This document shows positions 2,032 through 40,841 of a stretch of DNA of 64,000 nt, piece after piece. Every line of letters begins with the position of its first letter. Position 1 is the stretch's first letter. The notes below the pieces were generated by a model that worked only from the letters and a program-made list of their open reading frames with translations, searched no databases and had not been told where the DNA came from. A program made the translations under genes and the position numbers. Source of the stretch: Bacteriovoracaceae bacterium (lineage in GTDB: Bacteria > Bdellovibrionota > Bacteriovoracia > Bacteriovoracales > Bacteriovoracaceae); NCBI GenBank assembly GCA_047634375.1, contig JBLIAG010000003.1, forward strand, positions 10,262-74,261, read 5' to 3'.

Positions 2032-2108
2032 TGGCGGGAGCGAAGGGACTCGAACCCTCGGCCTTCTGCGTGACAGGCAGACGTTATAACCAACTTAACT
2101 ACGCCCCC
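2032..2108 (-). tRNA. tRNA-Asp (anticodon GTC)
   Basis: reverse complement folds as a cloverleaf: acceptor GGGGGCG/CGCTCCC, D-stem GTTA/TAAC, anticodon stem TCTGC/GCAGA with loop CTGTCAC (GTC), T-loop GTTCGAGT, discriminator G, encoded CCA. Confidence 0.85.
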
Positions 2109-25257: not shown

Positions 25258-25343
25258 TGGTGGCTCGGGCGGGACTTGAACCCGCACAGTATTGCTACCG
25301 GTGGATTTTGAATCCACTGTGTCTACCATTCCACCACCGAGCC
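25258..25343 (-). tRNA. tRNA-Leu (anticodon CAA), class II with long variable arm
   Basis: acceptor GGCTCGG/CCGAGCC, anticodon stem GTGGA/TCCAC with loop TTCAAAA (CAA), variable arm CGGTAGCAATACTGTG, T-arm GCGGG-TTCAAGT-CCCGC, discriminator A, encoded CCA. Confidence 0.85.
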
Positions 25344-27938: not shown

Positions 27939-29459
27939 ATGGTTGAGAATAAAGTCTTAAGTAGGAAACTTTTAAGCCTACTAGATGTATCGTCTATTTT
28001 ATCAGTCATTGTTGGGATATTGGTAGTCTTTGGAAATATTTATAATGTTTTTCCACTTATTCAAATCTTTAATCTCTTTATTCCAGTGAGCCTCATTTCG
28101 GGGATTAGTTTTATTCTTCTAGGCTTCGGTGTCATGGTAAGAAATGACTATGTTAATATCTCTCGATTCCTAACTTTTTCGGTAATTGGAATTCAATTAA
28201 TAAATCTTCTCTTCTTTTGCTTTGGAAAGATTGATTTGAGTTTGCTTCTTATTGAAAATATGGGATTCGAAATTATTCCAGCAAAGCGAAATACCGGGAT
28301 TATGTTTCTCTTTTTAAATTTTTCAGCATTATCATTAATTGGTAAGATTGATACATTAAGAAAGAAGATAGTGTTTTTCGTGATAAGTTTTTTTAATGTT
28401 TATATAATCTTAAATGGTTGTTTTTTATATTTTTCTGATCCAATTCAGGGTGGCCTTTTAAAGCAATTATACCTCTCTCTTCATGCAATCCTTATTTTTA
28501 CTGCCTTTCAAGTTAGTTATGCCCTCGAAGTTGAAACATATAAGGAATTAAAAAATCTACGAACTTACGTTCTTGTTTTAGGGATTGTAACGGCTGTTGT
28601 GATAGGTGTACAGATTCGTCTTTCCCTCGAGAAAAATGTTAACAAGACTAAGGATACGATTTCTACTTTAATTGTTGAGCAGTTTAAAGCCAATTTAAAA
28701 TTAAGGGTTATACAATCTTTGAATTGGGTTATTGCACATGAAAAAAAAGATTTAATAAAGCAGTCTAGTATAAATACCGCTTCCGTCGAGTGCTTTGAAA
28801 AAAAATATGTTAGAGAGCATTTCTTGGGTGGAGAGCTTTGCTCTAAGGAAAATATAAAATATGAGTATGATCTTAAAGAATATAAGTTTCTAGAAATTCA
28901 AGATCTTGAGGTTGTTTCTATATATGAAGAGGACTCAGAGCTTAAAGCTTTATTGAATTTTGAAATTTTTGGTCAAACAGGTGTTAATAGAATGATTCTA
29001 AATCTAAGTGATATCCTTACAAGTCTTGAATCTCAGTGGACGGAATTTAAAATGGAGGTTGGTACTCAAAAGGGATATACTGAAGATCATAACTCTGTGT
29101 TTAACAAAATTATTTTGAATTCAGAATATTATCTACAACTTAAATCTGAAAACGATTTAACCGAAAATCTAAAGACTTCTTTACCCGAAGTTGTACTCTT
29201 TTTGATTCTACTCCTGAATCTTATAATTTATAGCTTTTTAAGTTATTTTCAAAAAATGCAGTCAGCTTTTGAATTGAATTTTAAAAGTATTCAAAACAGA
29301 AATAATGAATTGGCCAATAGAGAGCATGAAATATCTACAAAGGATCAGAGAGTTCAAAATTTACTCAATAAATATATCGATAGTGATGAGCCGATGGTGA
29401 AGGCAAAAATTATTACAGAACTAAAGAGTATTTCGAATAATTCAGGTGAGAAAAAATGA
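27939..29459 (+). CDS. polytopic membrane protein with C-terminal helical/coiled-coil region (sensor-like, no output domain)
   Basis: 506 aa; ~7 predicted TM helices in first 230 aa; ATG immediately after stop of upstream gene; 3' end overlaps next gene start (ATGA). Confidence 0.45.
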   Translation: MVENKVLSRKLLSLLDVSSILSVIVGILVVFGNIYNVFPLIQIFNLFIPVSLISGISFILLGFGVMVRNDYVNISRFLTFSVIGIQLINLLFFCFGKIDLSLLLIENMGFEIIPAKRNTGIMFLFLNFSALSLIGKIDTLRKKIVFFVISFFNVYIILNGCFLYFSDPIQGGLLKQLYLSLHAILIFTAFQVSYALEVETYKELKNLRTYVLVLGIVTAVVIGVQIRLSLEKNVNKTKDTISTLIVEQFKANLKLRVIQSLNWVIAHEKKDLIKQSSINTASVECFEKKYVREHFLGGELCSKENIKYEYDLKEYKFLEIQDLEVVSIYEEDSELKALLNFEIFGQTGVNRMILNLSDILTSLESQWTEFKMEVGTQKGYTEDHNSVFNKIILNSEYYLQLKSENDLTENLKTSLPEVVLFLILLLNLIIYSFLSYFQKMQSAFELNFKSIQNRNNELANREHEISTKDQRVQNLLNKYIDSDEPMVKAKIITELKSISNNSGEKK

Positions 29460-31000
29460 AATTAAAATTAATAAAAGTATTTACTCCAATTATCCTTCTG
29501 ATAATCGTTATCGTTTCTTTCGCAGTAATTGTTAAAAATGAGATTGATTCTCGTTTTGCTCCAAAGAGTGAGTCGGAGATAGCTAAGATCATATCACTAA
29601 ATAAGATGTGGTATGAAACATATTTCAAAACCTATGACGATTACACTTCACTAATAACTTCTAGAACTCAGTTAAGAAGGAGTTTAAATTTACTTCAAAC
29701 AGAAGGTAAGAAAGAGCACCTTGATAAGGTCGTTAAAATAACAAATGATGCCATAAGAGCGTTGCCACAAATTGAAGGGATAAGATTATACAACGACAAA
29801 AAAATCTTGCTGGTAAAGGTTGGGCCAATGAAAGATGTTCAACTTCGAAATTTTGATAAACAAACTCGTTTTTTAAAAGGAGCTGGTGATAATATCATCG
29901 GCTTTTCAAGATCTCCACTCAATCTAGATGGTAAGATTATTGGCTATATAGATGTTTCTTATAGGAATACGAAGTTAAAAGCATATCATGATGAAATTTC
30001 TAAAAATGACTATGTTTTTAAAACTGAAATTTTATTTGCAAATAATTTTGATGATCGCTTACTATTACTTACTTCGAATCCTGATCCACTCCCAGAATCT
30101 TTAAAGGTTACAGTCAAAGAGATTATTCTATCGAATAATCTTATAATAAAGGTTTTTGTAAACAATGACCGTAGTGGGTTAAATCTAAAGATCACTAATC
30201 TTTTTAACTATTTAGTTCTTCCGGTAATTATATTATTTGGAATCATTATTATTTATCTTTGGAGTATTTTACATAGGGGAAAGGATGAAATGGAACTTCT
30301 AGTTAAGGAGTCAGCAAAGGCTAATAATGAACTTTCTCAAATTGTTTATCGAACGTCTCACGATTTAAGGGCACCAATAACAAGTATTAGAGGATTAACA
30401 TATATATTGGAAGACGAGTTAGAATCTGGGAATTATAATGATGTTTTGGATGGAATACTCGATATACAATCAAGTGCAGATTCCCTCGCAAGGTTAATTG
30501 ATGATTTGATGATTACTATTAAATCTGATTTAAGCTCTGAAAAAACAGATCTTGTTGCTGTTCAGGAGATTTTTGATGACCTGAATAAGTTAATTAAAAA
30601 TAGTATTAATTTGTCCAATATTCAACTTATTACCAACATTGGAATTTCGGATATATTTACAAAAAAGAGAAAGCTCACTCAAATTCTTTATAATATAGTA
30701 ATGAACTCAATCAAATTCTCTGATCCTTCAAAGATCAGCTCATTCATAAGTATTTCCATTAATGAAGTTGAGGACGAAATATATATAAAGGTCGAGGATA
30801 ACGGTATTGGGATGACTGAAGAAAATGTTTCAAAAATATTTGATATGTTTAGTCGTTTTAGTGCGAAGTCGGCTTCTGGCAGTGGGCTTGGAATGTATAT
30901 TGTTCACAAAGATGTTGCCTCGTTAAAAGGTAGAATTTTTGTTACAAGTGAGCTAAACTTAAAGACAATTATAACAATTGTTTTACCAAGGAAAGAGTAA
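29456..31000 (+). CDS. sensor histidine kinase
   Basis: 514 aa; TM - periplasmic ~220 aa - TM; H-box RTSHDLRAPITSI; N box IVMNSIKFS; G boxes DNGIGM, GSGLGMYIV. Confidence 0.75.
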   Translation: MKLKLIKVFTPIILLIIVIVSFAVIVKNEIDSRFAPKSESEIAKIISLNKMWYETYFKTYDDYTSLITSRTQLRRSLNLLQTEGKKEHLDKVVKITNDAIRALPQIEGIRLYNDKKILLVKVGPMKDVQLRNFDKQTRFLKGAGDNIIGFSRSPLNLDGKIIGYIDVSYRNTKLKAYHDEISKNDYVFKTEILFANNFDDRLLLLTSNPDPLPESLKVTVKEIILSNNLIIKVFVNNDRSGLNLKITNLFNYLVLPVIILFGIIIIYLWSILHRGKDEMELLVKESAKANNELSQIVYRTSHDLRAPITSIRGLTYILEDELESGNYNDVLDGILDIQSSADSLARLIDDLMITIKSDLSSEKTDLVAVQEIFDDLNKLIKNSINLSNIQLITNIGISDIFTKKRKLTQILYNIVMNSIKFSDPSKISSFISISINEVEDEIYIKVEDNGIGMTEENVSKIFDMFSRFSAKSASGSGLGMYIVHKDVASLKGRIFVTSELNLKTIITIVLPRKE

Positions 31001-31435
31001 ATGGAATTCGAAATTCTAACAGTTGATGATCAAGCAATGGATAGGAAAATACTATCTAAAATGTTAACAAAGTTATTTCCTGATGTGACTATTCACGAAG
31101 CAGAGAATGGACAACTCGCAATTGATTTTCTAAAGCAATATGACCAAACTCTTATAAAAGAGAATGTAAGTGTGAAAATGCCTCTGGTTATTTTTCTTGA
31201 TATCAATATGCCAGTTATGAATGGGTTTGAATTTTTAGATGTACTTTGTTCAGAGGTTAAATCAGAACTTATTGTGCTGGATCCATTAGTTGTAAGTATG
31301 CTCTCATCGTCTAAGAATGAGGAAGATATAGCTAAGGCTAAAGCTTATGGAATTGTTAAAGATTTCGTAACAAAATATCCTAAAGATAAAACTCAGTTAA
31401 AGCTTACAATAGAAAATGCACTAAAAGGTAGCTAG
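31001..31435 (+). CDS. single-domain response regulator (REC)
   Basis: 144 aa; ILTVDDQAMDRK…, phospho-acceptor context IFLDINMPVMNGFEFL; ATG directly abuts the kinase stop. Confidence 0.7.
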   Translation: MEFEILTVDDQAMDRKILSKMLTKLFPDVTIHEAENGQLAIDFLKQYDQTLIKENVSVKMPLVIFLDINMPVMNGFEFLDVLCSEVKSELIVLDPLVVSMLSSSKNEEDIAKAKAYGIVKDFVTKYPKDKTQLKLTIENALKGS

Positions 31436-31495
31436 CTTAAGTTTACATCATAACTTATCTCGGTTTATAATAAATCAAATTCAAAAGGGGTAGTT

Positions 31496-32506
31496 ATGGG
31501 TATTTTTGATGCTTTTAAGAAGCAATTTATTGATGTTATTGAATGGAGTGAAGATGATTCCGGTCTTATTCAATACCGCTATCCTTTTATCGATAAAGAA
31601 ATTCAATACGGTGGACAATTAACTGTTAGTGAAGGGCAAGTGGCTTTATTTGTTAACGAAGGTAAAGTCGCCGATTTATTTGAGCCTGGTCTTCATAAAT
31701 TAATGACAAATAATTTGCCTATCTTAACAAGTTTAATGAACTGGGATAAAGCTTTTGAATCTCCATTCAAGTCAGACGTCTACTATTTTGTTACTAGAGA
31801 CCAGATAGATCAAAGATGGGGAACACCCAATCCAATTACAATTCGGGATAAAGAGTTTGGTCATATTAGATTAAGGGCCAATGGAACTTATACATTCAAA
31901 CTAGATGATGCTCGCCTATTTTTTGAAAAAGTATCGGGAACAAGAGGTGAGTATAGAATCGATGAATTAAATGATCAGCTAAGGTCAAATATACTTACTT
32001 CAATTAGTTCATTTTTTGGGAAAGCAGATATTCCATTTTTGGATATGGCGGCGAACCAAGTTGAGTTTTCTAAGGCCATTCAAGGAGCTGTTGAAGCTGA
32101 GTTTACAGCTTATGGATTAAAACTTCAGTCTTTCAATGTTCAAAACCTATCACTACCTGAAGAACTACAAGATTACCTAGATAAAAAATCTAAGATGAAT
32201 ATGATCGGTGACCTTAATAAATATGCTCAATTTGAAACGGCAGATAATATTGGAACAGCAGCTGCAAACGAAGGTGGCGGAGCAGGAATGGGAGTTGGTT
32301 TAGGTGCCGGTATCTCTATGGGGCAAACAATGATGAATAGCATGGGAAATGCTAGTGGACAAAATTCAAATCCTGTAAATGAAAGTGCCACTGAAGAAGA
32401 AATTCTTTCAACTATTGAAAAATTACACGGTTTGAAAGAGAAAGGTATTTTAACTGAAGAAGAATTTAATACAAAGAAATCGGAACTACTTAAAAAGTTA
32501 ATATAA
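31496..32506 (+). CDS. SPFH/Band-7 domain protein with Gly-rich linker and C-terminal SHOCT-like domain
   Basis: 336 aa; N-terminal ~270 aa match the SPFH-type (COG4260-like) pattern (DVIEWSED…GQLTVSEGQVALFVNEGK…YYFVTRDQ); linker GGGAGMGVGLGAGISMG; C-terminal EEEILSTIEKLHGLKEKGILTEEEFNTKKSELL is SHOCT-like. Confidence 0.6.
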   Translation: MGIFDAFKKQFIDVIEWSEDDSGLIQYRYPFIDKEIQYGGQLTVSEGQVALFVNEGKVADLFEPGLHKLMTNNLPILTSLMNWDKAFESPFKSDVYYFVTRDQIDQRWGTPNPITIRDKEFGHIRLRANGTYTFKLDDARLFFEKVSGTRGEYRIDELNDQLRSNILTSISSFFGKADIPFLDMAANQVEFSKAIQGAVEAEFTAYGLKLQSFNVQNLSLPEELQDYLDKKSKMNMIGDLNKYAQFETADNIGTAAANEGGGAGMGVGLGAGISMGQTMMNSMGNASGQNSNPVNESATEEEILSTIEKLHGLKEKGILTEEEFNTKKSELLKKLI

Positions 32507-33148
32507 ATGTTAAAAGCAGTATGCCCCAGTTGTGGGGGGGAGATAATTTTTCGTTCAAGTAACTCTGTATTGGCAGTTTGTACTTACTGTCGATCAAATA
32601 TTGTACGACATGATACGAATTTAGAACTAATTGGAAAGCAATCAGATCTTTTACCAGATATGAGTCCTTTGCAAATAGGTGTCTCTGGCAAATATGAGCA
32701 TATGAGGTTTCAAGTTGTCGGAAGACAAATTATGAAATGGAAAAATGGTCAATGGAATGAATGGTATATTATTTTTTCTGATGGTTCAGATGGATGGCTT
32801 GCTGAAGCCCAGGGGGAATTCAGTATTCTGCGAAAACCAAAAAAACAGCCTAAATTACCTAGTCCAAGTGAAATTTCAAAGCTTCATACAATTGAAATTG
32901 ATAAGTTGCACTTTAAATTAATTGATAAAAAGAAAGTTACATGTTTAGGAAGTGAAGGTGAACTTCCTTTCAAAGCAGTTGAAGGTGATAAATCTTTAAC
33001 TATGGATTTCTCAGATGGTAATGAAGGATTTGCAAGTGTTGAGGTTTTGTCTGATGGTGAAGTGCTCATTTATGTTGGAGCTTTTACTTCTTTAAAGAAA
33101 ATGTCTGTTTCTGGAATTCGTAGATTCGAAGGCTGGGAAAAGCTATGA
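32507..33148 (+). CDS. Zn-ribbon + DUF4178-like protein
   Basis: 213 aa; CPSCGGEI…CTYCRS zinc ribbon then beta-rich domain with W.EY/WL.E.G pattern; start directly follows SPFH stop codon. Confidence 0.5.
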   Translation: MLKAVCPSCGGEIIFRSSNSVLAVCTYCRSNIVRHDTNLELIGKQSDLLPDMSPLQIGVSGKYEHMRFQVVGRQIMKWKNGQWNEWYIIFSDGSDGWLAEAQGEFSILRKPKKQPKLPSPSEISKLHTIEIDKLHFKLIDKKKVTCLGSEGELPFKAVEGDKSLTMDFSDGNEGFASVEVLSDGEVLIYVGAFTSLKKMSVSGIRRFEGWEKL

Positions 33149-34491
33149 GAAAGAATACTGAATTCGTAAGACCAGTTCTTAAGAGTTTTAATTGCCCTAG
33201 CTGTGGAGCGACACTTGATTTAAAGGCAGTTGGTATTACAGTTTCGGTGGCGTGTCCCAGTTGTCATAATATTATTGATGTAAACAATCCAAGTCTGGCG
33301 ATTATTTCTAAAGCCAATAGTAAATATAAAGTAAAACCTTCAATACCTATAGGAAGTCGTGGAAAGCTCTCTGGAAATGTTTATGAAGTCATTGGTTTTA
33401 TGGAACGAAAAGAGGGGATTTACCCTTGGAAAGAATACCTTCTCTATAATCCTTACGTCGGCTTTAGATGGCTTTTTGAAATGAATGGTCATTGGAGTTT
33501 TATTAAAAGAATAAGAACTCTACCCGAAGTCATTTCATCTACAAATCTAAAATATAAAGGTAGGTCATTTAAGCTATATAATGAAGGAAATGCTAGTGTT
33601 TCTTACGTAGAAGGTGAGTTCTATTGGAGAGTAGAAGAAAAAGATACTTCAAGACTCTTTGATTATATTAGCCCACCATATATGCTTTCAAAAGAGAGGC
33701 AAAACACTGAGATCACCTGGACTTTGGGAACTTATATTACGCCTGAAAGGTTAGAAAAATCTTTTAAGTTAAAAGATAAGCTTATAAAGCCTCAGGGAGT
33801 GGGGGCCAACCAACCATCTCCAGTTAAAGAAAAATTTAAAAATAATATCACTTTAGCAGCCTTGGCCCTCTTGGCTTGTTTAATAATGCAAGTTATAAGG
33901 ACAGGTACGGCCAATGAAGAATCACTCTATAGAAGTGATTTGAATTTGACCCTGGATCCTGGGGAGCAGAGCCTAGTAGCTCCAAAATTTAAACGAATTC
34001 AAACCAGGCCATTTAAAAGAAGCTCGACTCCTGACAAAATTAGCTTAATTAAAACACGAGAATTTCAAATTAATGAAAGTGGAAAGAATATAAAGCTTAA
34101 GGGTTATGCAGCCGTTCGTAATACATGGATTTTTCTGGATACACTTTTAGTTAATGCTGAAACTGGAAAAGGTATTCCACTACCTCTTGAGATTTCCTAT
34201 TACTTTGGATCTGATTGGACTGAGGGCTCAAAAAATGAAAGTGTTATTGCCTATAATGTTCCAGCTGGTACCTATTATCTTAGTATTCAAGCTCAAATAC
34301 CACGTAACTTTAGTATACACACAACGGTCAGTGTTGAGTTAATAAGTGACACTGTAATCATGTCTAACTTTTATTGGCTTCTGATAGCACTTTTCTTTCC
34401 GCTATTATTTACTGGTTTAGGATCATATTCATTTGAGAAAAAAAGATGGGTCAATGGAAGTGAAAATCCATATGGTGATTGGGAGAGTTAA
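33145..34491 (+). CDS. Zn-ribbon + DUF4178-like protein with two TM segments and extra C-terminal extracytoplasmic domain (paralog of upstream gene)
   Basis: 448 aa; CPSCGAT…CPSCHN ribbon; region 33300-33700 aligns with the upstream gene (IGxxGK…WxEY…WLxExxG); TM helices ITLAALALLACLIMQVI and FYWLLIALFFPLLFTGLG; ATGA overlap with upstream. Confidence 0.5.
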   Translation: MRKNTEFVRPVLKSFNCPSCGATLDLKAVGITVSVACPSCHNIIDVNNPSLAIISKANSKYKVKPSIPIGSRGKLSGNVYEVIGFMERKEGIYPWKEYLLYNPYVGFRWLFEMNGHWSFIKRIRTLPEVISSTNLKYKGRSFKLYNEGNASVSYVEGEFYWRVEEKDTSRLFDYISPPYMLSKERQNTEITWTLGTYITPERLEKSFKLKDKLIKPQGVGANQPSPVKEKFKNNITLAALALLACLIMQVIRTGTANEESLYRSDLNLTLDPGEQSLVAPKFKRIQTRPFKRSSTPDKISLIKTREFQINESGKNIKLKGYAAVRNTWIFLDTLLVNAETGKGIPLPLEISYYFGSDWTEGSKNESVIAYNVPAGTYYLSIQAQIPRNFSIHTTVSVELISDTVIMSNFYWLLIALFFPLLFTGLGSYSFEKKRWVNGSENPYGDWES

Positions 34492-34641
34492 TGTTATATA
34501 AAATACTTTACGGAGCTTTTGTTTGTTATTTTGGGTATGTCTCTTTTACTGGAAGGTCCGTTTGGAACTCATCTGCAGAAAGAAAAATGACTCCAAAGGG
34601 AAAACGAAGTTATTATAATCATAAATAAATTGGAGGAATAA

Positions 34642-34860
34642 ATGGAAAATTTAATTAATATTCAAAGTATTGTATCAGCGGTGATCTTTTCAATATTAGG
34701 TTGTATTGCTTTTGGAATTGCATTTAAGGTAATAGATTTCTTGACACCTAATGATATGTGGAATGAAATTTTAGAAGAACATAATAATGCTCTTGCTATT
34801 GTCATTGGAAGTGTTGCAATAGGTATTGCTATAATTATTTCAGCTTCTATTAGAGGTTAA
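34642..34860 (+). CDS. DUF350-like small membrane protein (two TM helices)
   Basis: 72 aa; two hydrophobic helices separated by TPNDMWNEILEEHNNA; RBS GGAGGAATAAATG; stop abuts next gene start. Confidence 0.45.
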   Translation: MENLINIQSIVSAVIFSILGCIAFGIAFKVIDFLTPNDMWNEILEEHNNALAIVIGSVAIGIAIIISASIRG

Positions 34861-36354
34861 ATGACATTCGCATTATTGTTCTCTGTTGCAGTCATTGCAA
34901 CTTGTGGGCTTGTATATGAATTAATAGCTGGTGCATTGGCCAGTTATCTATTGGGTGATTCAATCACCCAGTTTTCTTTTATAATTGGTGTCTACCTTTT
35001 TGCGATGGGGGTAGGATCCTACTTATCCAAATTTATTACAAAAAGACTTTTGACCACTTTTATCAATATCGAGTTTATTGTTGGTATTGTTGGTGGTGTT
35101 TCAGCAACGGTTTTATTTTTATCTTTTGAATATATAAACTCATTTCGAATTTTACTTTATACCTTTGTCTTTGTGATCGGAACTTTGGTGGGGCTAGAAA
35201 TTCCTTTGCTTATGAGAATCTTACAAGACAAGTATGAATTTAAAGACTTAGTATCAAAAGTTTTCACAGTCGATTATATAGGAGCATTATTTGCGTCCAT
35301 TACGTTTCCTTTAATTCTGGCCCCTCAATTAGGTCTCATGCGAACAGCATTTCTATTTGGAATTTTCAATATTCTCGTGGGCCTTTGGACTCTTTATTTA
35401 TTTAGAGGAGAGTTAGTTAGTTTTAAATTCCAGAGGACGACTGGTATCTTTTTTTTAATCTTCCTTGTTTTTGGTTTTGTATATTCAAATCAACTACTTC
35501 AGTTCGCCGAATCTAATCACTATGATGATCCTATTATTTTTAATAAAAAATCTCCCTATCAAAAGTTAGTCCTAACTAAGGGGCACGATTTAAAATTATA
35601 TATTAATGGTAATCTTCAATTTAGCTCTATGGACGAGTACAGGTATCATGAAGCACTAGTTCACCCCGGAATGGCCAATAATGATTATATCAAAAATGTC
35701 CTTGTCTTAGGTGGTGGTGATGGTTTCGCTGTAAGAGAAGTTTTAAAGTATCCTCAGGTCGAAAAAGTAACCCTTGTTGATCTTGATCCGTTAATGACAA
35801 AACTCTTTAAAGAAAATAAAGATCTTGTGTCCCTTAATAGTAATGCTTTAAATTCACATAAGGTAACAGTCATTAACGATGATGCTTTTGTTTGGCTAAG
35901 AGATAAGAATAAGAAAAAATATGATTATATTATTATCGATTTCCCTGATCCTTCTAACTTTTCACTAGGAAAACTTTATTCTAAATCCTTCTTTAAAATA
36001 GTTAAATCAAGTCTTAGTGACGAAGGCCTAATGGTCATTCAGAGTACTTCTCCATATTTCGCTAGAAAATCCTATTGGTGTGTTGGAAATACAATTGACC
36101 ATGTAGGGCTAAAGACTATTCCTTACCACGCCTATGTACCATCTTTTGGAGAATGGGGTTATTTTATGGCGAGTAAAAAGCCTTATAGATTTCCTGAGAA
36201 ATTTGTCGAAGGTCTAAAGTTCATAAATGGCGATACACTTAAGCAAATGTTCCAATTTCCAAAGGACATGAGTAAGGTTAAAACAGAAGTTAATCGATTA
36301 AATAATCAAATTCTTGTTCATTACTTTGAAGAAGAATGGTCGCAGTTTAATTAA
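34861..36354 (+). CDS. polyamine aminopropyltransferase (spermidine-synthase-like) fused to N-terminal ~7-TM membrane domain
   Basis: 497 aa; first ~200 aa polytopic; then PABS fold motifs VLVLGGGDGFAVREVLKY, VTLVDLDP, YDYIIIDFPDPSN. Confidence 0.75.
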   Translation: MTFALLFSVAVIATCGLVYELIAGALASYLLGDSITQFSFIIGVYLFAMGVGSYLSKFITKRLLTTFINIEFIVGIVGGVSATVLFLSFEYINSFRILLYTFVFVIGTLVGLEIPLLMRILQDKYEFKDLVSKVFTVDYIGALFASITFPLILAPQLGLMRTAFLFGIFNILVGLWTLYLFRGELVSFKFQRTTGIFFLIFLVFGFVYSNQLLQFAESNHYDDPIIFNKKSPYQKLVLTKGHDLKLYINGNLQFSSMDEYRYHEALVHPGMANNDYIKNVLVLGGGDGFAVREVLKYPQVEKVTLVDLDPLMTKLFKENKDLVSLNSNALNSHKVTVINDDAFVWLRDKNKKKYDYIIIDFPDPSNFSLGKLYSKSFFKIVKSSLSDEGLMVIQSTSPYFARKSYWCVGNTIDHVGLKTIPYHAYVPSFGEWGYFMASKKPYRFPEKFVEGLKFINGDTLKQMFQFPKDMSKVKTEVNRLNNQILVHYFEEEWSQFN

Positions 36355-36355
36355 T

Positions 36356-37963
36356 ATGAAAATTAACCGAAGAAAATTACTCCTAGCAGCTGGCTCACTC
36401 ACCATCATTTCCCTTATTGGTTTTAGAAAAATAAAAGGCTTTTTAAAAGAAAGAATTATTCCAGGATCTATTTCTGGAGCAAATTTTTCGAGAGGACACC
36501 TCATTCGTGATCCACAGTTTGAAGGCGAAATAATTCATGAAGAGATTCCTGTTGTCATTATTGGTGGTGGAGTATCGGGACTGTCCGCTGGATATCAATT
36601 AGCAAAATCAGGCTTTACAGATTTCAAAATTCTAGATTTAGAAAATCGGGTTGGAGGTAACTCTTCAAGCGCAAGTAATAGCGCTGGAAGCTATCCTTTA
36701 GGAGCGCATTATGTTCCTCTTGCATCAAGTGAGGCCACAGAGTTAAAAGAATTCTTTCGAGATTCTGGAGTAATAGTAAATGAAGATCTAGATAATCCCG
36801 AATATAATGATTTCTTCGTTTGTAGTGCTCCACAAGATCGGCTTTTTCTCCATGGGCGTTGGCAAGAAAATCTTGAGCCAAAACAGGGAGTTCCAATCGA
36901 TCAGCAAAATGAATTTAGACGTTTTTTTTCTATTATGGATAAATTAAAAATATCCCGCGGAAAAGATGGACTAAGGGCCTTTGCAATTCCGATGAGTAGA
37001 AGTTCCAAAGATTCTAAATTCTTGAAGTACGATCAAATGACTATGAAAGATTTTTTGATAAAAAATGAATTTCTAAGTGAATATCTACATTGGTATGTAA
37101 ACTATTGCTGTCTGGACGATTACGGCGCTCCTATGGAATTAGTTTCTGCATGGGCCGGTATACATTATTTTGCTTCTCGAAATGGTAAAGGAAAAAACTT
37201 AACTTCTTCTGATGTTATTACTTGGCCACAAGGAAATGGATGGTTTGTTGATAAACTGTCTTCTGGAATTAAAAATCAAATTCAATTAAATAGTCTTGTT
37301 TATGAAATTAATGAAGAAGATGGTATTTATCTAATTAAAAATTTTAACTTTGAAAGCAAAAAAAGGCACTTCATTAGGTGCAGAAAAGTTATATATGCTT
37401 CACCCTTATTTACAGCAAAAAGAACAGTACAAATAAAAGAACTTCAGGAAAAAATCCAAAAAGTTAACATCGAGTATTCACCATGGATGACAGCAAATAT
37501 TTTATTCAAAGGATCTTTGAATGATTCGAATATTCCAGTTTGCTGGGATAATGTAAACTATCATGGGAAAAGTTTGGGGTATATTTATGGTAATCACCAA
37601 GATGTAAATAGAGTCAATGAGAAGATTAATCTAACACAATATTGGCCCCTTATAAAAAGTACTCCTCAAAAAGCTAGAATTAGAGCACTCACAAAAACCC
37701 ATCAAGAATGGTGTGAAGATGTCATTAATGAGCTAGAGCTCACCCATACGGATGTACGAGAAAGAATTGAAAGGATAGATGTTTCTTTATGGGGACACGC
37801 AATGGCCATCCCCAAAGTTGGATTTTTAAATCGCATAAATCAGCTGGATGAGAATAAGAGTTTTATCTTTGCACATACAGATCATGCAGGCGTTTCTATT
37901 TTTGAGGAAGCTTTTTACCAAGGTTTGAGTGCTGCGAACAAGATAATAAAAGGTCAACCTTGA
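36356..37963 (+). CDS. Tat-signal FAD-dependent oxidoreductase, amine-oxidase-like
   Basis: N-terminus MKINRRKLLLAAGSLTIISLIGF (twin-arginine motif); dinucleotide-binding VVIIGGGVSGLSAGYQLA…LDLENRVGGNS; ATG 1 nt after previous stop (ORF track start 36314 is probably upstream read-through of the frame). Confidence 0.6.
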   Translation: MKINRRKLLLAAGSLTIISLIGFRKIKGFLKERIIPGSISGANFSRGHLIRDPQFEGEIIHEEIPVVIIGGGVSGLSAGYQLAKSGFTDFKILDLENRVGGNSSSASNSAGSYPLGAHYVPLASSEATELKEFFRDSGVIVNEDLDNPEYNDFFVCSAPQDRLFLHGRWQENLEPKQGVPIDQQNEFRRFFSIMDKLKISRGKDGLRAFAIPMSRSSKDSKFLKYDQMTMKDFLIKNEFLSEYLHWYVNYCCLDDYGAPMELVSAWAGIHYFASRNGKGKNLTSSDVITWPQGNGWFVDKLSSGIKNQIQLNSLVYEINEEDGIYLIKNFNFESKKRHFIRCRKVIYASPLFTAKRTVQIKELQEKIQKVNIEYSPWMTANILFKGSLNDSNIPVCWDNVNYHGKSLGYIYGNHQDVNRVNEKINLTQYWPLIKSTPQKARIRALTKTHQEWCEDVINELELTHTDVRERIERIDVSLWGHAMAIPKVGFLNRINQLDENKSFIFAHTDHAGVSIFEEAFYQGLSAANKIIKGQP

Positions 37964-39006
37964 ACCCTTGGATTCTAAGCCAAAGATTTGATTTAAGTTT
38001 TTTATTACTTCCAGGATTTCTATCTGTTGTAATTGTGATTTTTGGGAATGAGTTTGGGGTAAGTCCAAGTCATGTATCCCCCGTTATGTGGTTATTATTA
38101 GTCGTTCTCATTGATGTTTGCCATGTCTGGTCTACTTTATTTAGAACATACTTAAATAAATACTCAAATGAAGAATTTGAGAAAGAATTATTTCTAATTC
38201 CCTTTGCTGTATGGGTGAGTGGAACTATTATTTGTTCAATCAGTAGTACAGCATTCTGGACTTTACTGGCGTATACAGCGGTATTTCATTTCTTAAAACA
38301 ACAGGTTGGTATACTCAAAATATATTGTCAGAAATCTAAACAATTAGCTAGATCATATACCTGGGATATCTTTTTTACCTATTCATTAATGCTCATTCCG
38401 ATTGTTTATTGGCACCTTACACCAAGGGAGTTTCATTGGTTTACACCCACGGATTTTTTTAAATTTAATACTCAAAATATAGATTTTCTTATTCCTCCAG
38501 TTTATTTAACTCTAATCTTAATACATCTAATTAAAGAATATAATTTTCGGAGTGATTTTAATCTTCCAAAGAATATTCATATTCTTTCCACTGGCCTAGT
38601 ATGGTTTTTTGGAATTATTTATTATAATAATGATTGGACGTTCACATTAACGAATGTTGTTCATCACGGGATTCCTTATTTCGCTCTTGTCTGGGCGAGT
38701 TGTTTGAGAGGTGATTACACGACAAGTCCCAGGTTTTTTCAGGTAATTTTTAAGAAAAAAATAGTTATTAGAACAATGTTTTTTTTAGGCTTACTTTTTT
38801 GCCTAGGATATGGGGAAGAACTTCTTTGGGACATTTTTGTGTGGCATGATAACGATTCCATTTTCCCTAAATCTTTTTATGTCGAACTAAGTGACATAAC
38901 TTTGGTTTGGTTAGTTCCACTTTTAACTCTACCTCAGGCAACTCACTATATTCTTGATGGGGTTATTTGGAAAAGAAATCGAAAAACAAAAGAGTTCGCT
39001 TTTTAA
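37960..39006 (+). CDS. hypothetical polytopic membrane protein, Trp/His-rich (TTG start overlapping upstream stop; alternative Met further in)
   Basis: 348 aa; ~8 hydrophobic segments; many conserved-looking W/H/Y (HVW, WHLTPREFHW, VVHHGIPYF). Confidence 0.4.
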   Translation: MNPWILSQRFDLSFLLLPGFLSVVIVIFGNEFGVSPSHVSPVMWLLLVVLIDVCHVWSTLFRTYLNKYSNEEFEKELFLIPFAVWVSGTIICSISSTAFWTLLAYTAVFHFLKQQVGILKIYCQKSKQLARSYTWDIFFTYSLMLIPIVYWHLTPREFHWFTPTDFFKFNTQNIDFLIPPVYLTLILIHLIKEYNFRSDFNLPKNIHILSTGLVWFFGIIYYNNDWTFTLTNVVHHGIPYFALVWASCLRGDYTTSPRFFQVIFKKKIVIRTMFFLGLLFCLGYGEELLWDIFVWHDNDSIFPKSFYVELSDITLVWLVPLLTLPQATHYILDGVIWKRNRKTKEFAF

Positions 39007-39974
39007 TAAGTAGACTTTACGAGCTTAAGTGTTTCATCCATTTTAAAACGATAGAATTCATCGCCTAAGTGCTTTGTCAGGTTAGAGCTATCTAAAAGGC
39101 AAGAGTATTTTAAATAGTCTATCAGGTATTCTGGAACATCAAGGTTGGTCACTTTTAGTACTTTATTAAGTGCGCTCGCCATTGAAATAGGGAACGGAAT
39201 GCCCTTAGATCCTATTATGTCGAGTGCCTTTCTTAGACTTACAAATTCATTGGTAGCTACGTTGTAAATTCCTGTAGGGAGTTTTCCAATTGAATGGTAT
39301 AGAACCTGTGCCATGTCAAATTCATGAATAAATTGAAAGACAGGATTATAATCAATTGGTCTTAAGGCAAGGCTACTCGTTAGGTATTTACTCATACTGT
39401 TTGAAATTTGGTTTCCAATTATATTACAAGGTCTCAAAATGACAGAGCTTACTTGATTTTGATACTTCCACATCCAGGTTGAGCAAATTTGATCCATTTC
39501 TACGACATCTCTTAGTTCCGGATGTTTCATTGATGCCTTAAGGGGGGAATCTTCCTTCAGAAATATACTATTATCACTAAATGCGCCATAAACGTGAAAG
39601 GTACTTAAAATAACAATCTTTTTTACATTAAATCGTAAACTTAAATCTAAGATTCTATTCGTTCCCATTACACTAAGTTCTAGTCTTTCTGTAAGACCGG
39701 CATGGATATTTGAGCTATGAGAAATTCTCGCAAGATGGTAAACATAGTCAAAATTATGATCTCTAAATAAATTCTCAAAATTACCTCTTGAAAACCTTAA
39801 CTTTTCTGCTTTAAGCCCTTTGAGCTTTGAAACTTTATGTACTGGCCTTGTATCGATTCCAAGTATTTCCCAATCAGGGTGATGCTGAAGGATTAGTTTA
39901 CTCAAAATTTGGGCAAGGCCTCCAGCTATTCCAATTATTAGTACTTTCTTTTTTGTTTCTTCCATTTTATCCAT
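39003..39974 (-). CDS. NAD-dependent epimerase/dehydratase family protein (extended SDR)
   Basis: 323 aa; N-terminal Rossmann KKVLIIGIAGGLAQ; length and pattern typical of sugar-nucleotide epimerase/dehydratases. Confidence 0.65.
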   Translation of the reverse strand: MDKMEETKKKVLIIGIAGGLAQILSKLILQHHPDWEILGIDTRPVHKVSKLKGLKAEKLRFSRGNFENLFRDHNFDYVYHLARISHSSNIHAGLTERLELSVMGTNRILDLSLRFNVKKIVILSTFHVYGAFSDNSIFLKEDSPLKASMKHPELRDVVEMDQICSTWMWKYQNQVSSVILRPCNIIGNQISNSMSKYLTSSLALRPIDYNPVFQFIHEFDMAQVLYHSIGKLPTGIYNVATNEFVSLRKALDIIGSKGIPFPISMASALNKVLKVTNLDVPEYLIDYLKYSCLLDSSNLTKHLGDEFYRFKMDETLKLVKSTY

Positions 39975-40841
39975 TTAAAACTTCTTCATTATATCGTTGA
40001 TTGGCTTTCTAACTTTATCAAAAAATTTACGTCTATCTTGAAGGCCTCGAGTGATGTTTTCTTTGATTACTTTTTCGATTTTATGGATATGTGGTCTTAT
40101 GTCTTTCTCAGGAGCTTCAGAGGATAAATCTTTTGGAATATTTATTGGTTTACCGATGTAAATATCAATTGGAGAGGGAAGGGGAATGGCATTGAGTGGA
40201 ATCGGAAGATTTGGTAGCCCCAATTTCTTTGCTAGTTCAGCTGCCTGAAACACTATTGGGAACATTTCTTCTGCGCCCACTACTGATATTGGTAAAATTT
40301 GCGTTTTTGCTTGCAATGCAATTCTATAAAACCCACTTGAAAACTTTTGTAACCTATAAAAATTCTTTGTACTTTTATTTATACCCCGAACACCCTCAGG
40401 AAAGACTAAGATTGATTCACCCTGCTTTAGTAACCATTTACAGTTCTCCCTATCTCCCAAAATTGAACCTGTTTGAGCTGAAATATCTCCAATAAATGGC
40501 ATTCCGGCCATAAATCTTTCTATCATACTATGAAGAACTCTTGGTTGATCAAATTCGTATGCCATGGCAATTGTTATAAGCATGGCATCGATAGGTACTT
40601 GGCCAGTATGGTTAGAAACAACCATATAAGGGTTGTCCCTCACGTTTTCAATCCCAAAGACTCTAACCTTAAAATAGTTACGGTAGATAGGTAGAACGAA
40701 CTCCATCGCTGTCTTAACGGTATTTAAGTTAAACCCCCAAGGGTCTTGGTAGTCTTTGTATCTTTCTTGGAGCTTCTTAAAGACTAGGTCTTTTCTCTCT
40801 TTGTCAGATTTCGATAATTTTATATTAAATTGCTCAAGCAT
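39975..40841 (-). CDS. lysophospholipid acyltransferase (PlsC-like)
   Basis: 288 aa; acyltransferase motifs VVSNHTGQVPID (H…D) and FPEGVRG. Confidence 0.6.
   Translation of the reverse strand: MLEQFNIKLSKSDKERKDLVFKKLQERYKDYQDPWGFNLNTVKTAMEFVLPIYRNYFKVRVFGIENVRDNPYMVVSNHTGQVPIDAMLITIAMAYEFDQPRVLHSMIERFMAGMPFIGDISAQTGSILGDRENCKWLLKQGESILVFPEGVRGINKSTKNFYRLQKFSSGFYRIALQAKTQILPISVVGAEEMFPIVFQAAELAKKLGLPNLPIPLNAIPLPSPIDIYIGKPINIPKDLSSEAPEKDIRPHIHKIEKVIKENITRGLQDRRKFFDKVRKPINDIMKKF

What the first reader, a model, noticed from the sequence alone, without database searches (positions are those of the whole stretch)
31496..39006. Seven-gene translationally coupled block: SPFH–SHOCT, two Zn-ribbon/DUF4178-like paralogs, DUF350-like protein, membrane-fused spermidine synthase, Tat amine oxidase, Trp/His-rich membrane protein
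All seven genes are co-directional and tightly packed. The junctions are: TAA then ATG at 32504-32509; an ATGA overlap at 33145-33148; TAA then ATG at 34858-34863; a 1-nt gap at 36354/36356; and a TTG start overlapping the TGA stop at 37960-37963. This indicates a single operon. The domain inventory combines an envelope scaffold (Band-7/SPFH with a SHOCT oligomerisation tail) with tandem duplicated zinc-ribbon proteins, a two-helix DUF350-type mini protein, and a polyamine module. The polyamine module is a SpeE-like aminopropyltransferase fused to a ~7-TM domain, followed by a periplasm-exported (twin-arginine signal) FAD amine-oxidase-like enzyme. DUF350 and polyamine-conjugating genes are known neighbours of the PspA-like yjfJ envelope-stress cluster in enterobacteria, but no PspA/IM30 gene is present here. 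The combination with a membrane-embedded synthase, an exported oxidase and duplicated Zn-ribbon proteins is not a described system to my knowledge. Hypothesis: a membrane-stress or envelope-remodelling module that makes and oxidises a polyamine at the membrane. It may be regulated by the immediately upstream four-gene sensory operon.
Basis: partly seen in the sequence, partly recalled or inferred. Interest (0 to 1): 0.85.

Follow-up and report, generated by a model that had tools for sequence, protein, structure and literature searches.

The report
Envelope operon with lysine-tipped mini-peptide
This is a real, tightly packed operon of eight (not seven) genes, found in hundreds of bacterial species and already noticed in the literature but never characterised. 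The overlooked eighth gene encodes a tiny peptide that always ends in His-Lys, which may be the long-sought target of the membrane-bound 'spermidine synthase'.

Summary
Observation confirmed and extended. All seven ORFs, their junctions and every domain call hold: Band_7_1+SHOCT, two Zn-ribbon/DUF4178 paralogs, DUF350, 7TM-fused aminopropyltransferase, Tat-signal FAD amine oxidase, 348-aa membrane protein. The 151-nt 'gap' holds an eighth gene (34491-34631, 46 aa: one TM helix plus a low-complexity tail ending HK).

The order C-mini-DUF350-TM-SpeE-oxidase-H recurs in 62 of 66 informative loci from Bacteroidota, Alpha/Betaproteobacteria, Bdellovibrionota and Leptospiraceae, usually with AdoMet decarboxylase (speD). 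The system is not undescribed. Ravi et al. 2024 (mSystems) list a Band-7/SHOCT variant of DUF350/DUF4178/TM-spermine-synthase operons with AdoMetDC and polyamine oxidase. Function is unknown.

Apparently new here:
- The mini-peptide ends in His-Lys in 70 of 70 loci.
- An unrelated lipoprotein at the same position in TelA-type operons ends in Gly-Lys.
- E. coli's analogous DUF1190 lipoproteins end in Gly-Gly next to peptide-spermidine ligases.
- Charge-based topology puts the SpeE domain, the oxidase and the peptide tail in the periplasm.
- H is an orphan family with no fold match.

Best hypothesis (about 0.4): the C-terminal Lys is aminopropylated, and an LSD1-like oxidase reverses or processes it. 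A link to the upstream sensory operon is not supported.

The parts
31442..31471 (+). sigma-70-like promoter candidate (TTTACA-18-TATAAT) in the 60-nt gap between the response-regulator gene and gene A
   Evidence: 11 of 12 matches, joint best on the + strand. The total number of such sites in the region is not above the shuffle expectation, so this is only a candidate.
31496..32506 (+). Gene A, 336 aa: SPFH/Band_7_1 domain, Gly-rich hydrophobic linker, C-terminal SHOCT
   Evidence: PF13421 E 2.4e-74, PF09851 E 5e-8. No strong TM segment by hydropathy. Orthologs occur at the same position in 16 of 66 loci (Alpha/Betaproteobacteria, Bdellovibrionota, Ralstonia).
32507..33148 (+). Gene B, 213 aa: CxxC...CxxC zinc ribbon + DUF4178, soluble
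   Evidence: PF13785 E 1e-11. Paralog of C. Fused to C in many ~640-aa homologs and in Ralstonia.
33145..34491 (+). Gene C, 448 aa: zinc ribbon + DUF4178 (cytoplasmic), TM helix, ~150-aa beta-sandwich domain (periplasmic), TM helix
34491..34631 (+). One TM helix plus a low-complexity basic tail ending His-Lys
   Evidence: TAATG overlap with C, and a GGGAG upstream. An ORF ending HK* lies between C and F in 70 of 70 loci and in Ralstonia. Background: 71 of 5252 ORFs in those loci end in HK. No Pfam or NCBIfam model. An alternative TTG start at 34479 is possible.
34642..34860 (+). Gene E, 72 aa: two-helix DUF350 (YjfL family) membrane protein
   Evidence: PF03994 E 8e-12. Two TM segments. Detected in 56 of 66 loci.
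34861..36354 (+). Gene F, 497 aa: 7-TM domain with invariant intramembrane E20, E71, E113, D138 (plus D33), fused to an aminopropyltransferase domain
   Evidence: NF002956 at 684 bits, above the 472 cut-off. Closest solved relatives are thermospermine synthase, a Pyrobaculum aminopropyltransferase and Thermus TAAPT; GGGDG and DxxDP motifs are retained. Seven TM segments, with 200 K/R in N-side loops against 33 in the others across 19 orthologs. Invariant acidic residues in 69 orthologs.
36356..37963 (+). Gene G, 535 aa from the ATG (the ORF opens at TTG 36314): twin-arginine signal plus FAD amine-oxidase-family flavoprotein
   Evidence: PF01593 E 5e-12, NAD_binding_8. Only the FAD-binding N-terminus matches solved MAO/PAO/spermine oxidase structures. 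The RR/RK motif is conserved in orthologs, and by eye several Bacteroidota sequences have a Cys after the hydrophobic region.
37960..39006 (+). Gene H, 348 aa (TTG start): 10-helix integral membrane protein of an orphan family with invariant D52, H55, H110, Q114, H152, H236, E286, E287, H329, D333

Best explanation
SHOWN.
- The block is one eight-gene operon of a Bacteriovoracaceae bacterium.
- It is a typical member of a widespread gene neighbourhood whose core is: DUF4178-TM protein, mini-peptide, DUF350, 7TM-aminopropyltransferase, Tat amine oxidase, and an orphan 10-TM protein.
- Elsewhere the neighbourhood usually also includes AdoMet decarboxylase.
- It is the Band-7/SHOCT (PspA-less) variant of the DUF350/DUF4178/TM-spermine-synthase operons catalogued by Ravi et al. 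2024.

INFERRED MECHANISM.
1. The enzyme does not make free spermidine. It transfers an aminopropyl group from decarboxylated AdoMet onto the epsilon-amine of the invariant C-terminal lysine of the co-encoded mini-peptide D.
2. This produces a spermidine-like tip (Lys side chain plus aminopropyl) on a flexible, membrane-anchored tail.
3. Charge-based topology places the SpeE domain, the Tat-exported oxidase and the peptide tail all on the periplasmic side.
4. The acidic 7-TM domain of F would then act as the conduit for the cationic donor. The polar-cored H protein is a second candidate.
5. The FAD amine oxidase G would work like the histone demethylase LSD1, a member of the same amine oxidase family. 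It would oxidise the N-alkyl-lysine either to remove the group (an eraser) or to convert it into a reactive aldehyde.
6. The remaining proteins would couple the state of this tail to the inner face of the membrane: C (whose beta-sandwich domain is predicted to be periplasmic), its soluble paralog B and the SPFH/SHOCT scaffold A. PspA-CesT or TelA take this role in sister operons.
For: Operon and family:
- ORFs, junctions and domains.
- Gene order conserved in 62 of 66 loci; speD present in 58 of 66.
- Literature description of the neighbourhood.

Peptide as substrate:
- An ORF ending HK* lies between C and F in 70 of 70 loci. Only the last two residues are invariant.
- Ralstonia keeps an HK-ending 61-aa peptide with speD, F and G, although no H homolog lies in the locus examined (about 8 kb either side of F).
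- In TelA-type operons that lack G and H, an unrelated ~510-aa lipoprotein sits directly upstream of DUF350. Its low-complexity tail ends ...RGPxxGK in 12 of 13 family members, down to 28-30% identity. The neighbourhood is conserved around distant members.
- In E. coli, the DUF1190 lipoproteins YjfM and YgiB have low-complexity tails ending GG. Each lies directly upstream of a gene now annotated as peptide--spermidine ligase (yjfC, ygiC), whose physiological substrate is unknown.
- Both system types would therefore yield a polyamine-tipped tail.
- Ravi et al. cite Li et al. 2019 for 'aminopropylation of other substrates'.

Topology:
- F has 7 TM segments with 200 against 33 K/R.
- G has a conserved Tat motif.
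- D's N-flank is more positive than its C-flank in 53 of 65 sequences.

Enzyme:
- Catalytic motifs are intact. The nearest solved relatives include Thermus 1uir, which from general knowledge is a triamine/agmatine aminopropyltransferase accepting larger amines, and thermospermine synthase.
- Four invariant acidic residues lie inside F's TM helices.
Against: - No modification has been observed. The link between peptide and enzyme rests on gene adjacency and a conserved terminus.
- A periplasmic aminopropyltransferase needs dcAdoMet outside the cytoplasm, which is unprecedented. The topology rests on the positive-inside rule only.
- In the window's own peptide the tail is far more basic than the N-flank, which on its own would suggest a cytoplasmic tail.
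- This genome's operon lacks speD, as do three other Bacteriovoracaceae loci, and no speD is found in the 64-kb window.
- A conserved C-terminal Lys also fits a Braun-lipoprotein-like peptidoglycan attachment site.
- The E. coli ligases are ATP-dependent and cytoplasmic while their putative partner lipoproteins are exported, so that analogy has its own topology problem.
- The roles of H, DUF350 and DUF4178 remain guesses.
Confidence: 0.4

Rival explanations
1. Free-polyamine module. The membrane-fused SpeE makes spermidine or another free polyamine from a diamine at the membrane. The exported oxidase degrades or converts it. The other proteins are scaffolds or sensors. The mini-peptide is an accessory subunit.
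For: F scores above the curated cut-off of the NCBIfam equivalog 'polyamine aminopropyltransferase' and keeps the catalytic motifs. G belongs to the amine/polyamine oxidase family. speD is in most related operons. Ralstonia places an ABC transporter directly upstream of F-G.
Against: Ravi et al. cite Li et al. 2019 for aminopropylation of substrates other than polyamines. From my memory of that abstract, which I could not read here, organisms with the fusion lack spermidine and the fusion does not complement an E. coli speE mutant. This view does not explain an invariant C-terminal His-Lys or Gly-Lys on the neighbouring exported protein in two unrelated families. It also does not explain why enzyme and oxidase are predicted to be periplasmic.
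Confidence: 0.2
2. The C-terminal lysine is not the aminopropyl acceptor. Peptide D and the GK lipoproteins use it as an anchoring or recognition residue, as Braun's lipoprotein uses its C-terminal Lys (…YRK) for cross-linking to peptidoglycan. F would aminopropylate something else in the envelope, such as a lipid head group, peptidoglycan or a small molecule. G would act on that product.
For: The terminus aromatic-basic-Lys (Y at -3 in 52 of 70) resembles Lpp's YRK (general knowledge). The peptide tail is predicted to be periplasmic. Polyamines covalently bound to peptidoglycan anchor the outer membrane in Selenomonas (Kojima et al. 2011, cited in PMC8503589). The TM domain of F, with four buried acidic residues, could bind a lipid-linked or cationic acceptor.
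Against: It does not explain why such a peptide is always encoded beside the aminopropyltransferase/DUF350 pair in every operon variant seen. It also does not explain why E. coli pairs GG-ending tails with peptide-spermidine ligases. The two ideas are not exclusive: an aminopropylated Lys could itself be the cross-linking amine.
Confidence: 0.3
3. An anti-phage defence or toxin-type island that happens to contain SPFH and methyltransferase-fold proteins.
For: SPFH and SHOCT domains and Zn-ribbon proteins occur in some defence loci (general knowledge). F's Rossmann domain gives a PADLOC hit to 'mad2'.
Against: The PADLOC hit covers only the generic methyltransferase fold, and the other seven proteins give nothing relevant. 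The locus is syntenic across phyla rather than patchy within species. GC content is uniform with its surroundings.
Confidence: 0.02
4. Chance juxtaposition of unrelated genes, transcribed independently.
For: None beyond the lack of transcript data.
Against: Seven junctions of -4 to +10 nt. The same order appears in 62 of 66 loci from several phyla. B+C fusions exist.
Confidence: 0.01

Closest known systems
Band-7/2TM/SHOCT variant of the DUF350-DUF4178-7TM-spermine-synthase operons (Ravi, Anantharaman, Aravind, Gennaro et al., mSystems 2024, PMC11237479)
   Same: Same inventory: Band-7+SHOCT in place of CesT-PspA, DUF4178, DUF350, 7TM-fused Spermine_synth and a polyamine oxidase. Same proposed theme of membrane dynamics coupled to aminopropylation.
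   Different: The paper gives one sentence and no function. It does not mention the HK-ending mini-peptide or the 348-aa H family in the text and supplement I could search. This genome's operon lacks the AdoMet decarboxylase named there.
E. coli yjfIJKLMC and tolC-ygiBC clusters (DUF350 YjfL; DUF1190 lipoproteins YjfM/YgiB; peptide--spermidine ligases YjfC/YgiC, Pederick et al. 2023)
   Same: A DUF350 membrane protein, an exported protein with a low-complexity C-terminal tail, and an enzyme that joins a polyamine moiety to a peptide. The physiological substrate is unknown.
   Different: E. coli uses an ATP-grasp ligase that adds whole spermidine to a carboxylate. Its tails end Gly-Gly, a PspA homolog is present, and there is no oxidase, no DUF4178 and no H. 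Here an aminopropyltransferase is paired with tails ending in Lys.
Membrane-fused SpdSyn-like protein with AdoMet decarboxylase (Li, Kurihara, Kim, Liang, Michael, Biochem J 2019)
   Same: A membrane domain fused to a spermidine-synthase-like domain, linked to speD and DUF350, and thought to aminopropylate a non-polyamine substrate (as cited; details from memory).
   Different: The paper was not readable here. As far as I recall it names no acceptor. F here matches NF002956 strongly and the 'fused MFS/spermidine synthase' model NF037959 only marginally.
TelA-type and PspA-type sister operons (Alteromonas plasmid MCP49-600; Shewanella SO_3765; M. tuberculosis Rv2597-Rv2601)
   Same: TM-SpeE, DUF4178, DUF350 and an exported protein directly upstream of DUF350. 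In the TelA type that protein ends Gly-Lys.
   Different: The cytoplasmic scaffold is TelA or CesT-PspA (DUF2617 in Mycobacterium) instead of Band-7/SHOCT. There is no oxidase and no H. The exported protein is a ~510-aa lipoprotein or DUF4247 rather than a 46-aa peptide.
LSD1/KDM1 histone demethylase and polyamine oxidases (FAD amine oxidase family PF01593)
   Same: Same flavoenzyme family as G. LSD1 oxidises an N-alkylated lysine on a peptide tail, which is the chemistry proposed for G (general knowledge).
   Different: G matches solved family members only over the FAD-binding N-terminus. It is Tat-exported, and its substrate is untested.
B. subtilis pspA-ydjGHI (the Band_7_1 protein, written YdjL in Ravi et al. 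and recalled by me as YdjI, with the double zinc-ribbon membrane protein YdjG)
   Same: An SPFH protein paired with a zinc-ribbon membrane protein in an envelope-stress context. The Band_7_1 subfamily assignment of the B. subtilis protein is from memory.
   Different: That operon contains PspA and a TPM-domain protein and has no polyamine enzymes.

Membership tests
DUF350/DUF4178/7TM-spermine-synthase neighbourhood, Band-7/SHOCT variant (Ravi et al. 2024) | Spermine_synth domain fused to an N-terminal ~7-TM domain | tested here: met
DUF350/DUF4178/7TM-spermine-synthase neighbourhood, Band-7/SHOCT variant (Ravi et al. 2024) | DUF350 (YjfL) and DUF4178 genes in the same operon | tested here: met
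   Conserved order.
DUF350/DUF4178/7TM-spermine-synthase neighbourhood, Band-7/SHOCT variant (Ravi et al. 2024) | Band-7 protein with C-terminal SHOCT replacing the CesT/Tir-PspA pair | tested here: met
   The '2TM' element corresponds at best to a Gly-rich segment that does not reach a TM hydropathy threshold.
DUF350/DUF4178/7TM-spermine-synthase neighbourhood, Band-7/SHOCT variant (Ravi et al. 2024) | Polyamine oxidase gene in the operon | tested here: met
   (PF01593).
DUF350/DUF4178/7TM-spermine-synthase neighbourhood, Band-7/SHOCT variant (Ravi et al. 2024) | AdoMet decarboxylase gene in the operon | tested here: not met
   No speD in the block or in the 64-kb window by tblastn. It is present in 58 of 66 related loci but absent from the three other Bacteriovoracaceae loci. 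It could lie elsewhere in the genome.
Polyamine aminopropyltransferase, long membrane form (NCBIfam NF002956 / PRK03612) | Full-length match above the curated cut-off | tested here: met
   684.5 bits against 472, residues 2-495.
Polyamine aminopropyltransferase, long membrane form (NCBIfam NF002956 / PRK03612) | dcAdoMet-binding GGG(D/E)G motif and catalytic DxxDP motif | tested here: met
   (G284-G288, D360, D363 invariant).
Polyamine aminopropyltransferase, long membrane form (NCBIfam NF002956 / PRK03612) | Makes spermidine or another free polyamine | not testable with these tools
   Needs an enzyme assay. The literature cited suggests otherwise.
Phage-shock (PSP) system | A PspA/IM30 gene | tested here: not met
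   None of the eight products matches PspA. tblastn with E. coli YjfJ finds nothing in the window (low sensitivity).
Tat-exported flavoprotein | Twin-arginine motif followed by a hydrophobic stretch, conserved in orthologs | tested here: met
Tat-exported flavoprotein | Actual Tat-dependent export | not testable with these tools
   Needs RR-to-KK mutants and fractionation.
Enzyme with a co-encoded peptide substrate (RiPP-like or LSD1-like logic) | Short peptide gene with an invariant residue, adjacent to the modifying enzymes across lineages | tested here: met
Enzyme with a co-encoded peptide substrate (RiPP-like or LSD1-like logic) | Demonstrated covalent modification of the peptide | not testable with these tools
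   Needs mass spectrometry.
Known anti-phage defence systems (PADLOC) | Match of system-specific proteins | tested here: not met

The most novel reading that the evidence does not exclude
Bacteria possess a periplasmic writer/eraser cycle of protein lysine aminopropylation.
- Writer: a transporter-fused aminopropyltransferase builds a spermidine-like tip on the C-terminal Lys of a dedicated membrane-anchored peptide or lipoprotein.
- Eraser: a Tat-exported LSD1-like flavin oxidase removes or activates it.
- Readout: SPFH, PspA or TelA scaffolds sense the state of the tail through DUF4178/DUF350 proteins.
- The E. coli YjfM/YgiB (Gly-Gly tails) and YjfC/YgiC peptide-spermidine ligase pairs would be a second route to the same polyamine-tipped tail.

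If so, this would identify the unknown substrates of both enzyme classes.
Probability: 0.3. Interest if true: 0.9.

Novelty: new member of a known kind. Interest (0 to 1): 0.7.

Why it matters
The neighbourhood occurs in at least 594 species-level genomes, including Ralstonia solanacearum, Mesorhizobium, Flavobacterium and Chitinophaga. Sister versions occur in Mycobacterium tuberculosis, Shewanella and E. coli. Yet no function is known for DUF350, DUF4178, the membrane-fused 'spermidine synthase' or the H family.

An invariant C-terminal lysine on the co-encoded exported peptide turns two open questions into simple mass-spectrometry and enzyme experiments:
- What does the membrane SpdSyn-like enzyme aminopropylate?
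- What do the peptide-spermidine ligases YgiC and YjfC modify in vivo?

If correct, it would add a new bacterial protein modification and a link between polyamine chemistry and envelope-stress scaffolds.

Tried and rejected
- Li et al. 2019 could not be read, so its content is from memory plus the citation.
- Other Michael-lab papers searched held nothing on the membrane fusion.
- The afdb50 fold library was unavailable.
- Profile searches of H against the PDB and per-member Pfam scans gave nothing. An early idea that H is a CAAX-type protease (one JGI label), a di-iron hydroxylase or a cytochrome could not be supported.
- PADLOC gave no defence system.
- Rfam found only two tRNAs in the window.
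- Promoter and terminator scans are not enriched over shuffles. There is no terminator inside the block.
- tblastn found no speD, PspA, TelA or YjfC homolog in the window.
- I considered a cytoplasmic model, with the SpeE domain and the D tail inside the cell, by analogy with the cytoplasmic E. coli ligases. Three independent charge and signal predictions point to the periplasm, but the cytoplasmic model is not excluded.
- I looked for HK- or GK-ending mini-ORFs next to isolated H genes and found none, so D tracks with F, E and C rather than with H.

Full report
**1. The observation**

The window is uniformly about 33% G+C. Its 348-aa protein is 100% identical to a protein of a 'Bacteriovoracaceae bacterium' MAG.

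The junctions read as stated:
- A/B: TAA-ATG.
- B/C: ATGA.
- E/F: TAA-ATG.
- F/G: 1 nt.
- G/H: TTGA.

Profile searches confirm every domain call:
- Band_7_1 (E 2e-74) plus SHOCT.
- DUF4178 in both zinc-ribbon proteins, which are paralogs (24% identity, E 1e-11).
- DUF350.
- Spermine_synth, with a full-length match to NCBIfam NF002956 (684 bits, cut-off 472).
- Amino_oxidase and NAD_binding_8.
- No family for the last protein.

**2. An eighth gene**

The only sizeable 'gap' (34492-34641) is not empty. An ATG overlapping the stop of gene C (TAATG) opens a 46-aa ORF: MLYKILYGAFVCYFGYVSFTGRSVWNSSAERKMTPKGKRSYYNHK. It ends 10 nt before the DUF350 start, and a GGAGG lies between them. No junction in the block therefore exceeds 10 nt.

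Small genes were called at the same position in Micavibrio and Solitalea.

**3. Conservation**

The 348-aa protein (H) has 963 homologs at E up to 1e-3 in the word-indexed search. It has 2202 cluster representatives in the exhaustive search.

A scan of species-representative genomes found at least 594 genomes carrying it. Eighty loci were fetched. I mapped the window's proteins onto them by tblastn. Of 66 loci with at least 7 kb upstream of H:
- 62 have C, F and G upstream in the same order.
- DUF350 is detectable in 56.
- speD is present in 58.
- Band-7 is present in 16.
- B is present in 35.

Two layouts dominate:
- Band7-B-C-mini-DUF350-F-G-H-speD, in Alpha- and Betaproteobacteria, Oligoflexia and Bdellovibrionota.
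- speD-(B)-C-mini-DUF350-F-G-H, in Bacteroidota.

The window and three other Bacteriovoracaceae loci have the first layout without speD. No speD is detectable in the window.

Many C homologs are ~640-aa B+C fusions, as in Ralstonia.

Homologs of the upstream CHASE-kinase / unknown / kinase / receiver genes are never adjacent upstream in other loci. The 60-nt gap before gene A holds the joint-best sigma-70-like match of the region.

**4. What is already known**

Ravi et al. 2024 (PMC11237479) describe three relevant items:
- Operons combining a 7TM-fused spermine/spermidine-synthase-like protein, DUF350, DUF4178 and a lipoprotein with a CesT/Tir-PspA pair.
- A Mycobacterium variant, Rv2597-Rv2601.

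They propose that such systems monitor polyamines 'or aminopropylation of other substrates', citing Li et al. 2019. I could not open that paper. From memory, its abstract reports that bacteria with the membrane-SpdSyn-like fusion and a functional AdoMetDC lack spermidine, and that the fusion does not complement an E. coli speE mutant.

However, nothing experimental is known. Only this one paper in the searchable library mentions DUF4178.

**5. The mini-peptide**

In all 70 loci with enough sequence, an ORF ending in His-Lys-stop lies between C and F. Residue frequencies at the C-terminus:
- Position -1 is Lys in 70 of 70.
- Position -2 is His in 70 of 70.
- Position -3 is Tyr in 52 of 70.
- The rest is a Ser/Gly-rich, variable tail behind one hydrophobic helix.

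Only 71 of 5252 ORFs of at least 40 aa in those loci end in HK. That is essentially these genes alone. No Pfam or NCBIfam model matches.

Three further observations extend the pattern:
- Ralstonia. On the Ralstonia solanacearum megaplasmid the genes are rearranged: DUF350-Band7-DUF4178x2-mini-speD on one strand, and a divergent ABC transporter-F-G. H is absent from the neighbourhood. The 61-aa mini-protein still ends ...GGHK.
- Alteromonas. On an Alteromonas plasmid a TelA-type sister operon (F-speD-x-TelA-DUF4178-lipoprotein-DUF350) lacks G and H. The gene before DUF350 is a 510-aa lipoprotein whose low-complexity tail ends ...FRNRGPSSGK. Twelve of 13 homologs, down to 28-30% identity, end ...GK. 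The neighbourhood is kept around distant members.
- E. coli. The DUF350 gene yjfL is followed by yjfM, a DUF1190 lipoprotein with tail ...ARGHWGG, and then by yjfC. The paralog ygiB (tail ...SSRSMGG) is followed by ygiC. Both enzymes are now annotated as 'peptide--spermidine ligase', after Pederick et al. 2023. Their physiological substrate is unknown.

The common denominator is an exported protein with a floppy tail, encoded beside a DUF350 protein and an enzyme that can put a polyamine moiety on a peptide end. A Lys side chain plus an aminopropyl group is a spermidine-like arm. A Gly carboxylate plus spermidine gives a comparable tip. This unifying reading is my inference.

**6. Topology**

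- G carries a twin-arginine motif conserved across orthologs. By eye, several Bacteroidota sequences have a cysteine after the hydrophobic region, suggesting Tat lipoproteins.
- F has seven hydrophobic segments. In the 19 orthologs where all seven are detected, loops on the N-terminal side hold 200 K/R against 33 on the other side. This predicts N-in, with the catalytic domain outside.
- The N-flank of D is more positive than the 12 residues after its helix in 53 of 65 sequences. This predicts a periplasmic tail, although the window's own peptide is ambiguous.
- F's TM helices contain invariant E20, E71, E113 and D138. This suits a conduit for a cation such as dcAdoMet.

These are predictions, not measurements. 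A periplasmic aminopropyltransferase would be unprecedented.

**7. The other parts**

- F. Its catalytic domain is closest to thermospermine synthase, a Pyrobaculum enzyme and Thermus TAAPT (the last accepts larger amines, from general knowledge). It keeps GGGDG and DxxDP.
- G. It matches solved MAO, PAO and spermine oxidases only over the FAD-binding region. The same Pfam family includes LSD1, which oxidises N-alkyl-lysine on a peptide tail (general knowledge). That is a precedent for G acting on aminopropyl-lysine. His at -2 accompanies operons that have G, and Gly at -2 accompanies those that lack it. This is a weak correlation from a few operon types.
- H. It models with high confidence as ten helices (pLDDT 92). 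It has invariant His, Asp and Glu residues in the membrane core and has no relative by sequence or fold. It often overlaps speD, and in one locus it remains paired with speD alone. Exporter or membrane enzyme are both open.
- A. It occupies the slot that PspA-CesT or TelA fill in sister operons.

**8. Verdict**

The finding is real and well read, but it belongs to a catalogued, uncharacterised neighbourhood. Its value lies in three things:
- The missed peptide gene.
- The cross-family C-terminal-lysine theme.
- The periplasmic topology.

Together these give a concrete, cheaply testable hypothesis for the acceptor of the membrane 'spermidine synthase'.

I put about 0.4 on lysine aminopropylation of the peptide. 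I put 0.3 on the lysine serving another role while F modifies something else, and 0.2 on free-polyamine metabolism. Defence or chance are negligible.

Noticed in passing
window 25659-31435 (+): Four translationally coupled genes: a CHASE-domain histidine kinase (759 aa), a 506-aa protein with no Pfam match, a second HisKA/HATPase kinase (514 aa) and a receiver-only response regulator (144 aa). Their adjacency to the block is not seen in any related locus.
   Followed up: partly
window 39003-40841 (-): A convergent pair, NAD-dependent epimerase/dehydratase (323 aa) and acyltransferase (288 aa). The epimerase gene overlaps the stop of gene H by 4 nt, so there is no room for a terminator after the operon.
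   Followed up: no
L086 7388-8026 and L089 1745-2416 (E. coli MG1655 yjfM, ygiB): Both DUF1190 lipoproteins end in Gly-Gly after a Ser/Gly-rich tail. Each sits directly upstream of a peptide--spermidine ligase gene. They may be the unknown physiological substrates of YjfC and YgiC.
   Followed up: partly
P0321 (1278 aa): One member of the H family is fused to a complete M1 aminopeptidase (Peptidase_M1_N, Peptidase_M1, ERAP1_C). This is a single case and could be a gene-calling artefact or a hint of peptide processing.
   Followed up: no
L083/L084 (Ralstonia solanacearum OE1-1 megaplasmid CP009763.1, 1529503-1541391): A rearranged version of the system in a genetically tractable plant pathogen. 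DUF350(4TM)-Band7-double DUF4178-61-aa HK peptide-speD lie on one strand. A branched-chain-type ABC transporter followed by F and G lies on the other. No H is nearby.
   Followed up: partly
L022 (Solitalea agri) and L047 (Bdellovibrionota MAG): L022 carries a tandem duplication of the C-DUF350 segment (speD-C-E-C-E-F-G-H). In L047 the tblastn hit to C abuts the hit to G, and D, E and F are missing, which suggests a decayed operon or a misassembly.
   Followed up: no
L016, L042, L081: H homologs occur without C, D, E, F or G within 10 kb. In L016, H keeps only speD as a neighbour. H can evidently be separated from the rest of the system.
   Followed up: partly
window 2035-2108 (-), 25261-25343 (-), 42039-43397 (+): Two tRNA genes are the only Rfam matches in the window. 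A sigma-54-dependent activator gene lies 3 kb downstream of the block.
   Followed up: no
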